The notes under the pieces were generated by a model that was not told where the DNA came from, did no database searches, and worked only from the letters and a program-made list of their open reading frames with translations. From positions 28,334,001-28,398,000 of the forward strand of contig OX597828.1 of NCBI GenBank assembly GCA_951406725.2: a stretch of 64,000 nt of DNA. Direction: 5' to 3'. The position numbers and the translations under genes are program-made. This document shows positions 19,965-21,524 of the stretch, in pieces; position 1 is the first letter of the stretch; each line of letters opens with the position of its first letter. Origin of the DNA: Octopus vulgaris. Taxonomy: Eukaryota.

Positions 19965-20124
19965 CTCTCTCTCTCTCCATATATATATACATATATATAC
20001 ACATACATGTACATGCATATGTGCAAACACACACACACACACATACATGTATTTCTATTTTTATATATATATATATTTATATATATATTATAATGGAATA
20101 ATTACTGTGAAGCATTGTGTAAAT

Positions 20125-20703
20125 TATATTGTATAAAAGATCGTGGGTAAGGCCAAAACAATGTGAAGTAAATGCAAGGTAATTCACAAGAAAACAAATA
20201 CATGAATTAATGTAGACTTACCTTCTATTCAATATTTCGGGGTTATGACCCCCATTTTCAAGAAATTGACGGATGTTGCCAATGTGTGTGAACATGTGTG
20301 GAGTGGATACGCACAGAAGTTTGTTGCTATAGCAACCAGATAGCTTCCTGTAACTCCCTTCTATTGTTGATCTTAGGTTTCTTTTGGTGTATGAGGATGG
20401 CCTCAGAGATTCTAAGGTTGCCCCTGTTTTGCTGTGTTGCCTTGATGTGCACTGTGAATTTCCGGGTCTGGCATTTCCATGGAGGTTTCTTCATGGAAGT
20501 TTCTGCCTGCATGTGTTTCTTAATGCGTACTTGCAGTTTTCTTGTCGTGTTTCCAATGTGAGATGCACCACATTTGCCACAGATGATCTCATATACAACA
20601 TAGGTTCTCTGGCATAGAGGACCCATATGTGATTTACCGTGCAATTTACCTTTCATTTACTTCGCATTGTTTTGGCCTTACCCACAATCTTTTATACAAT
20701 ATA
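20125..20703 (-). mobile_element. 5'-truncated Penelope-like element: GIY-YIG endonuclease fragment, 3' pLTR, and inverted terminal copy
   Basis: ORF 20327-20656 contains VVYEIICGKCGASHIGNTTRKLQVRIKKH...LRISEAILIHQKKPKIN; 20125-20187 is the reverse complement of 20639-20703. Confidence 0.85.
20222..20265 (-). ncRNA. Minimal hammerhead-like motif with U3-A8 core variant
   Basis: TTTC-TTGAAAA-T-GGGGGTCATAACCCC-GAAA-TATTGAA-TA-GAAG, located downstream of the GIY-YIG ORF. Confidence 0.55.
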
Positions 20704-21524
20704 TATACATATATATATGTATTTAGATAGATAGATTTATATGGGAGCAACTATCTTTGAACACTCATATTGTCGTTGGATGCCCGAAATGAGGAGTAGA
20801 TAGAAAGCTGACAGCTGATGAAGGGTCGTTCTTAGTGTTACTCGCCATGGTTTCCATTTTTTCTGTTGTTGTTTGCCTATTTGACTCATTTGTTTTCATA
20901 CTTCATATTGTTTACAGTTGGTGACACCCTGTACACATATATGCATATATATATACTCACATGAATAAATGGCCAAAATGTGGTGCACACTGGGGAACAA
21001 TCTTGGAATCAAACCCATAAATTCATAACATAAAAGACCACCTATTTTTCTGGATATTCTCATGTTTCTTATCTCTTTACCTTATTTGATAAAATTCTTC
21101 TCTGGAAAAGGTTTCACTTGTGTTTTCCATTTTTACTGTTTAATCAGAAAGCCATGCTGCCCTGTTTATGAGGAGCTCCAGGATCAGTGGGAGAAAGGGA
21201 AAGAGTTGTCTGCAAAATGCCGGTCTGGCTGGAATGTTTGCAAGTGGATTCAATTAAAAAAGATCACTAAATCCCAAGGGGTCGTTTTAAACCATGTAAC
21301 CAGTTAAGTCTACTAGCCAACAAATCCAAATGAGCAAGAGGACAGATGGATGATAGATGAAAGGGAAGAAAGCATTAATTGATAACTCTACTCTCCAATA
21401 TAGAATTGTACAAAGAAAACTAGAAGATCATTTATGGAAGCTTTATTATTTTCAAAATTCAGCACAGACAGACAATATATGAGAAATAAACAAGGAGGGT
21501 AACTTAAAATTAAGTTGAATATAT

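What the first reader, a model, noticed from the sequence alone, without database searches (positions are those of the whole stretch)
20125..20703. Compact Penelope remnant: GIY-YIG fragment, U3-A8 hammerhead variant, splice donor and inverted terminus
Seen on the minus strand: a GIY-YIG C-terminal ORF; a hammerhead-like motif whose core reads UUGAAAA, swapping the C3-G8 pair for U3-A8; AAG|GTAAGT (GTAAGT at 20221-20216) four nt after the predicted cut; and a ~63 bp inverted copy of the 3' end attached at the 5' truncation point. Established: PLEs often have inverted pLTRs and can retain spliceosomal introns. This copy ties the fold-backs and hammerheads to PLEs.
Basis: partly seen in the sequence, partly recalled or inferred. 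Interest (0 to 1): 0.7.

Follow-up and report, generated by a model that had tools for sequence, protein, structure and literature searches.

The report
Ordinary truncated Penelope retrotransposon copy
This is a dead, shortened copy of a common Penelope-type jumping gene: its unusual-looking ribozyme core is a variant already in print, and its supposed splice site lies in a predicted RNA hairpin and was not seen to be used in the RNA reads examined.

Summary
The stretch is a 5'-truncated, decayed copy of a high-copy Penelope-like element (PLE). Longer copies in the same genome carry reverse transcriptase upstream of this GIY-YIG domain, and one has the full inverted + tandem + body layout. The GIY-YIG fragment, UUGAAAA core, AAG|GTAAGT and inverted end are all present. 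U3-A8 is the family norm and is likely derived from C3-G8, which two sister families carry; the variant is published for Schistosoma PLEs (PMC4209133). The cut '4 nt before the donor' rests on a base nearly private to this copy; covariation across three families places the predicted cut 9 nt before it. Use of the donor is not shown: no spliced RNA read and no spliced genomic copy was found, and the donor is the 5' arm of a hairpin predicted in two families. The scan had noted other Penelope/hammerhead families in this genome, but not this one. Verdict: new member of a known kind, low interest.

The parts
20089..20703 (-). Whole two-armed PLE insertion in TA-rich flanks (main arm on -, short inverted arm on +)
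   Evidence: family homology; no target-site duplication discernible in the (TA)n flanks
20630..20703 (+). Inverted arm: copy of the element's 3' end stopping at the 'short' endpoint; 20646-20703 gapless at 95%, with an 11-nt internal duplication further in
20599..20629 (.). Small imperfect fold-back palindrome at the 5' truncation junction
   Evidence: sequence; predicted DNA hairpin is weak, -3.7 kcal/mol
20327..20614 (-). C-terminal GIY-YIG endonuclease fragment, decayed (YIG reads HIG, KEH reads KKH compared with family copies)
20227..20266 (-). Minimal type I hammerhead motif: helix I 20266-20262 with 20230-20227 (one bulge), core U3...A8 20261-20255, unpaired U 20254, helix II 20253-20239, GAAA-UA-U-U; predicted cut between 20231 and 20230
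20216..20224 (-). Donor-like AAG|GTAAGT, 9 nt after the predicted cut; use not shown
   Evidence: GTAAGT intact in 35 of 49 body-selected copies; searches found no splicing
20176..20224 (-). Predicted hairpin directly 3' of helix I; its 5' arm is the donor-like sequence
   Evidence: (z -2.13)
20089..20124 (-). PLE 'tail' (about 31-35 nt) between the short and long endpoints; holds an ATG (20115-20113) in frame with the ORF of the full-length copy, and the first AG after the donor (20106-20105, candidate acceptor of a 117-nt intron)

Best explanation
[quoted passage not shown] Shown: the family, an RT upstream of the endonuclease in longer copies, the ORF starting right after the tail in a full-length copy, the hammerhead covariation and the one-long/one-short rule for the ends. 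Inferred: the endonuclease nicked both target strands; one cDNA started at the downstream RT start site (long end) and ran about 530 nt, the other started at the upstream site (short end) and ran about 75 nt; the two were joined head to head after a short fold-back. The hammerhead would work, if at all, as a dimer or with protein help; its U3-A8 pair is a compensatory change from C3-G8, likely via U3.G8. The AAG|GTAAGT is likely kept mainly as one arm of an RNA hairpin. A retained 5'-UTR intron remains possible (about 40%).
For: Family: 1208 candidates, 40 scored, 84-89% identity. RT motifs in longer copies (Pfam RVT_1 E 1.6e-10); nearest homologs are RT+GIY-YIG proteins. Full layout in L074, whose N-terminus matches 11 long homologs. 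Hammerhead on 31 copies of three families: 87% of cells paired, 7 of 10 pairs with two-sided changes; pair 3-8 is CG 18, UA 8, UG 4, other 1. U3-A8 in 40 of 47 body-selected and 82 of 96 donor-selected copies; the UUGAGGA copies (14 against 152) share further diagnostic bases, so they look like a subfamily. Ends: 56 of 91 arms have an inverted partner; of 52 distinct two-armed insertions, the 35 with both ends defined are all long+short. Hairpin: 95% of cells paired in 23 copies of two families, also found unprompted by RNAalifold. Literature: tail = stretch between two RT start sites, both strands cut and extended, hammerhead protein-assisted (PMC11167929, parts 1-2 of 4).
Against: No cleavage, priming or splicing was tested at the bench. 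Helix I is short (4 bp with a bulge) and the cut triplet is AUU, so activity may be low or nil. Only 1 of 91 arms begins at the predicted cut. The rows for searches were picked for matching a hammerhead pattern, which inflates pairing. The hairpin has only 2 pairs with two-sided changes (6 cells), related copies are not independent, and 7 of 200 shuffles fold as well as the window copy. The two-primer model is inferred from end statistics; Arkhipova et al. 2013 instead propose self-priming on an antisense template. The clade was not fixed by a tree with named references.
Confidence: 0.88

Rival explanations
1. The donor is the real 5' splice site of a 117-nt 5'-UTR intron (GT at 20221 to AG at 20105) that is retained in retrotransposed copies, like the intron of D. 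virilis Penelope. The hairpin and an RT start site inside the intron would favour unspliced templates. This is compatible with the PLE assignment.
For: Consensus donor; no AG between the donor and 20106 in a T-rich stretch; AG kept in 92 of 96 copies; an ATG follows 16 nt after the AG in L074; sister family B also has AG|GTAAAA and a pyrimidine tract ending in TAG; 5'-UTR introns are known in Penelope and Chlamys-3 (passages).
Against: No GT..AG joint among 707 reads. Reads leaving the template at the donor (5 and 9 of 245 laid) continue with intron sequence lacking 5 nt, not with acceptor-side sequence. 0 spliced genomic copies, though retention predicts that too. Family B's AG is the hairpin's 3' arm, gives only a 41-nt intron and is absent in family A; family B lacks family A's AG; family C has no donor at this place. 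The candidate AG lies in codons of an in-frame upstream ATG. The RNA test is weak: about 6% of each run was read, reads came from other, decayed copies (none 99% alike), and some loose-end rows were not shown.
Confidence: 0.4
2. One reading: the hammerhead cuts after AUA, 4 nt before the donor, and cleavage is coupled to splicing.
For: In this one copy UUUC can pair with GAAG after the UA.
Against: The pairing G is found in 6 of 212 copies, and all RNA reads covering 20225 in three runs carry the family base. Sister families fix the register GAAA-UA-UH.
Confidence: 0.04
3. The motif is a catalytically dead relic, and U3-A8 is drift in a master copy rather than a compensated pair.
For: Weak helix I, U at position 17, no genomic 5' ends at the cut (1 of 91); PAc transposition in vitro does not need cleavage.
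Against: Both changes keep the 3-8 pair, the U3.G8 wobble state is a sizeable subfamily while C3.A8 is rare (4 of 100 listed), and the same swap occurs in Schistosoma PLEs.
Confidence: 0.25

Closest known systems
Minimal hammerheads of metazoan PLEs, including the U3-A8 variant of Schistosoma mansoni Cercyon (PMC4209133; parts 1-2 of 4 of the main text read, supplements not seen)
   Same: Type I minimal motif in the pseudo-LTR, unpaired base between 9 and 10.1, G10.1-C11.1, palindromic 15.2-16.2, short helix I, U3-A8 core
   Different: [quoted passage not shown]
Canonical EN+ PLEs of Adineta vaga, e.g. Pen2a_Av (PMC3846280; passages read)
   Same: Inverted arm at the 5' end, 31-bp tail on one arm only, pseudo-LTR/tail reaching into the first codons, palindromes at the inverted junction
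   Different: High copy number here, TA-rich targets, no target-site duplication discernible
PAc Poseidon of Anolis (PMC11167929; parts 1-2 of 4 read)
   Same: Two 3' endpoints that define a tail; AT-rich targets
   Different: Here the hammerhead lies wholly upstream of the start codon and the short endpoint is in the UTR; this lineage has a Cys linker that Penelope/Poseidon lack
Nematis and Hydra clades of C-terminal EN+ PLEs (Craig et al. 2021, PMC8557442; passages and supplement parts 54-55 of 59 read)
   Same: C-terminal GIY-YIG, short Cys linker before it, hammerhead present, (TA)n-biased insertion; DKG and CxxC within GIY-YIG as in Nematis
   Different: The linker has three Cys (C-x4-C-x6/7-C), neither the CX2-5CxxC of Nematis/Neptune nor the CxC of Hydra as drawn in their Fig. 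S2; clade not fixed here

Membership tests
EN+ Penelope-like elements | RT and C-terminal GIY-YIG in one ORF | tested here: met
   (in longer family copies, all with frameshifts or stops)
EN+ Penelope-like elements | Two Cys between GIY and YIG plus downstream His (CCHH) | tested here: met
   C-G-K-C, KEH and KHL in family copies; partly decayed in the window copy
EN+ Penelope-like elements | Partial-tandem pseudo-LTR and inverted 5' copy | tested here: met
   L074; 56 of 91 arms have an inverted partner
EN+ Penelope-like elements | 30-40 bp tail on one end only | tested here: met
   35 of 35 insertions with both ends defined; the window copy fits
EN+ Penelope-like elements | Spliceosomal intron in the 5' UTR (some members) | tested here: inconclusive
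   Signals present, no spliced read or copy
PLE minimal hammerhead | Core with 3-8 pair, extra base after A9, G10.1-C11.1, GAAA, palindromic 15.2-16.2, UH | tested here: met
PLE minimal hammerhead | Self-cleavage (dimer or protein-assisted) | not testable with these tools
   No genomic sign: 1 of 91 5' ends at the cut
Penelope/Poseidon clade | No Cys linker between RT and EN | tested here: not met
   Three-Cys linker in the family and in 129 of 150 top homologs
Nematis clade | CX2-5CxxC linker | tested here: not met
   Third Cys absent; compared by eye with Fig. S2 rows
Nematis clade | RT phylogeny groups with Nematis | not tested
Hydra clade | CCHH absent, DKT motif | tested here: not met
   CxxC present; SDKG in L032/L033/L074
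Naiad/Chlamys | N-terminal endonuclease | tested here: not met
   The endonuclease is C-terminal

The most novel reading that the evidence does not exclude
In this PLE lineage a conserved hairpin right after the hammerhead hides a real 5' splice site, and one of the two RT start sites lies inside that intron. Only unspliced RNA can then supply the short-end primer of a two-primer insertion, which would give a mechanical reason why Penelope elements keep introns. The lineage, marked by a three-Cys linker, may also be an unnamed subclade.
Probability: 0.15. Interest if true: 0.55.

Novelty: new member of a known kind. Interest (0 to 1): 0.17.

Why it matters
As a single copy it matters little: the main parts are in print. 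The family is of some use as a statistical sample. It shows a C3-G8 / U3.G8 / U3-A8 series in a hammerhead core within one genome, and a strict one-long/one-short rule for the two ends that any PLE integration model must explain. If the donor proved real and masked by the hairpin, it would make the open question of intron retention in PLEs testable with a simple minigene.

Tried and rejected
Rfam scan of the window: the 150 listed of 506 matches were microsatellite-driven hits, nearly all to miRNA families and all below gathering score; no hammerhead was among them, and 356 rows were not shown. Homolog search with the short window fragment: 0 of 9 candidates. Sequencing-run search: no RNA holder listed; raw reads added by species label were laid instead. 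The search for related loci with alignment A1 found no usable stretch, so pseudo-LTR DNA from distant relatives was not examined. Genomic 5' ends at the ribozyme cut: rejected (1 of 91); 61 of 91 begin 20-80 nt upstream of the donor anchor. Host-gene use of the donor: 0 of 49 filtered long frames in the window hit Pfam; short exons were not excluded. (TA)n next to 59 of 91 ends against a 14% background is inflated, because the short end itself finishes in ATATA. Paper searches: U3-A8 terms gave PMC4209133 and one unrelated listing; a guessed host name with Penelope and hammerhead gave nothing on this family (listing only); Penelope-like with twin priming gave 3 listings not about PLE integration; hairpin/splice-site terms gave nothing relevant among 15 listed of 31. 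The library lacks most subscription journals, and Repbase/Dfam were not available. The supplements of PMC4209133 were not seen; they may list mollusc motifs like this one.

Full report
Observation. Pfam gives GIY-YIG at E 0.0036, below the curated cut-off. Rfam listed no hammerhead among the 150 of 506 rows shown.

Family. The window lies in a 2.8-Gb animal genome. The element has 1208 candidate copies, of which the 40 scored are 84-89% identical, and homology starts at 20614. Walking upstream reaches RT motifs (Pfam RVT_1) and a full-layout but decayed copy, L074: inverted truncated copy, partial-tandem pseudo-LTR, then body. Its N-terminus, directly after the tail, matches 11 long homologs. 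The nearest database proteins carry RT and GIY-YIG, and the window fragment aligns to P0004 at 35%. The linker before the endonuclease has three Cys in 129 of the 150 best homologs. That excludes Penelope/Poseidon and differs from the Nematis and Hydra rows of Craig et al. Fig. S2. I call the lineage Nematis-like only tentatively, as no tree with named references was built. The window copy is dead: it lacks the RT and has changes at YIG and KEH.

Hammerhead. The family pattern has 125 exact matches and 0 in the control. Of 100 listed, 86 are U3-A8, 8 U3.G8, 4 C3.A8, 1 C3-G8 and 1 G3.A8. In copies chosen without regard to the core, U3-A8 is found in 40 of 47 and 82 of 96. Two sister families found by protein search carry CUGAAGA with the same frame: an extra base after A9, G10.1-C11.1, GAAA-UA-UH, and helix I AUGUC/GAMAU or GAUAU/AUAUC. 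On 31 pattern-matching copies, 7 of 10 pairs change on both sides. This fixes the predicted cut after AUU (20231/20230), 9 nt before the GT. U3-A8 in PLE minimal hammerheads is published (PMC4209133). Nothing here shows cleavage: 1 of 91 arms starts at the cut.

Donor. GTAAGT is intact in 35 of 49 body-selected copies, and the first AG downstream would close a 117-nt intron 16 nt before an ATG. Several results speak against use. There was no GT..AG joint in 707 RNA reads. Loose ends at the donor continue with intron sequence lacking 5 nt. There is no spliced genomic copy. Acceptor positions are not shared between families A and B, and family C has no donor there. These RNA tests are weak: about 6% of each run was read, the reads come from other decayed copies, and some rows were not shown. 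The donor is the 5' arm of a hairpin that RNAalifold finds in families A and B (95% of cells paired, 2 pairs with two-sided change). An unrelated sequence folds into a hairpin at the same place in 4 of 9 family C copies. I therefore read the site as likely structural, with a retained intron at about 40%.

Ends and mechanism. Copies end at two points about 31 nt apart. Of 91 donor-anchored arms, 56 have an inverted partner. Among 52 distinct two-armed insertions, all 35 with both ends defined are long+short; the other 17 have at least one undefined end. The window copy fits: long main arm to about 20089, short inverted arm at 20703, and a small fold-back at 20599-20629. Tails on one end, inverted arms and junction palindromes are described for PLEs, and Frangieh et al. 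equate the tail with the stretch between two RT start sites and show both strands cut and extended. My inference is two priming events, one per strand and one per start site, joined at their truncation points. I found no paper stating this for PLEs, but the library is partial. Most short copies (61 of 91) begin 20-80 nt upstream of the donor anchor, which may mark the transcription start or an RT stall at helix II.

Verdict. A decayed member of a known class. Interest 0.17.

Noticed in passing
P0021-P0168, A1; L017:1725-2441:-: A broad lineage of C-terminal EN+ PLE proteins (129 of 150 top hits) shares a three-Cys linker, C-x4-C-x6/7-C, that matches none of the linker rows in Craig et al. Fig. 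S2; possibly an unnamed subclade.
   Followed up: partly
L217-L246 (family B); L197-L209 (family C): Two sister PLE families in the same genome with canonical C3-G8 minimal hammerheads; family C has a longer 3' UTR with an A-rich tract.
   Followed up: partly
window 20118-20112 and 20165-20158; families B and C: GCATTGT...ACAATGC, which could pair around the short endpoint, and the ATGCTTCA start are shared by all three families despite about 45% protein identity between A and C; candidate RT-initiation element.
   Followed up: no
G000:C1:185126982-185127090, C7:89038534-89038630, C16:25671091-25671176, C17:17503344-17503449 and others: Many short head-to-head palindromic insertions made of two pseudo-LTR arms, with hammerheads 26-86 nt apart on opposite strands.
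   Followed up: partly
L033, L045, L074 N-terminal third: The ORF holds long low-complexity Ser/Thr or Asn-rich trinucleotide tracts, reminiscent of the N-rich inserts of Adineta Penelope elements.
   Followed up: no
window 20323-20336: A perfect 14-nt palindrome spans the stop codon of the endonuclease frame and is conserved in the family.
   Followed up: no
window 20717-20930: The left flank holds a different dispersed repeat (matches L019 upstream in inverted orientation).
   Followed up: no
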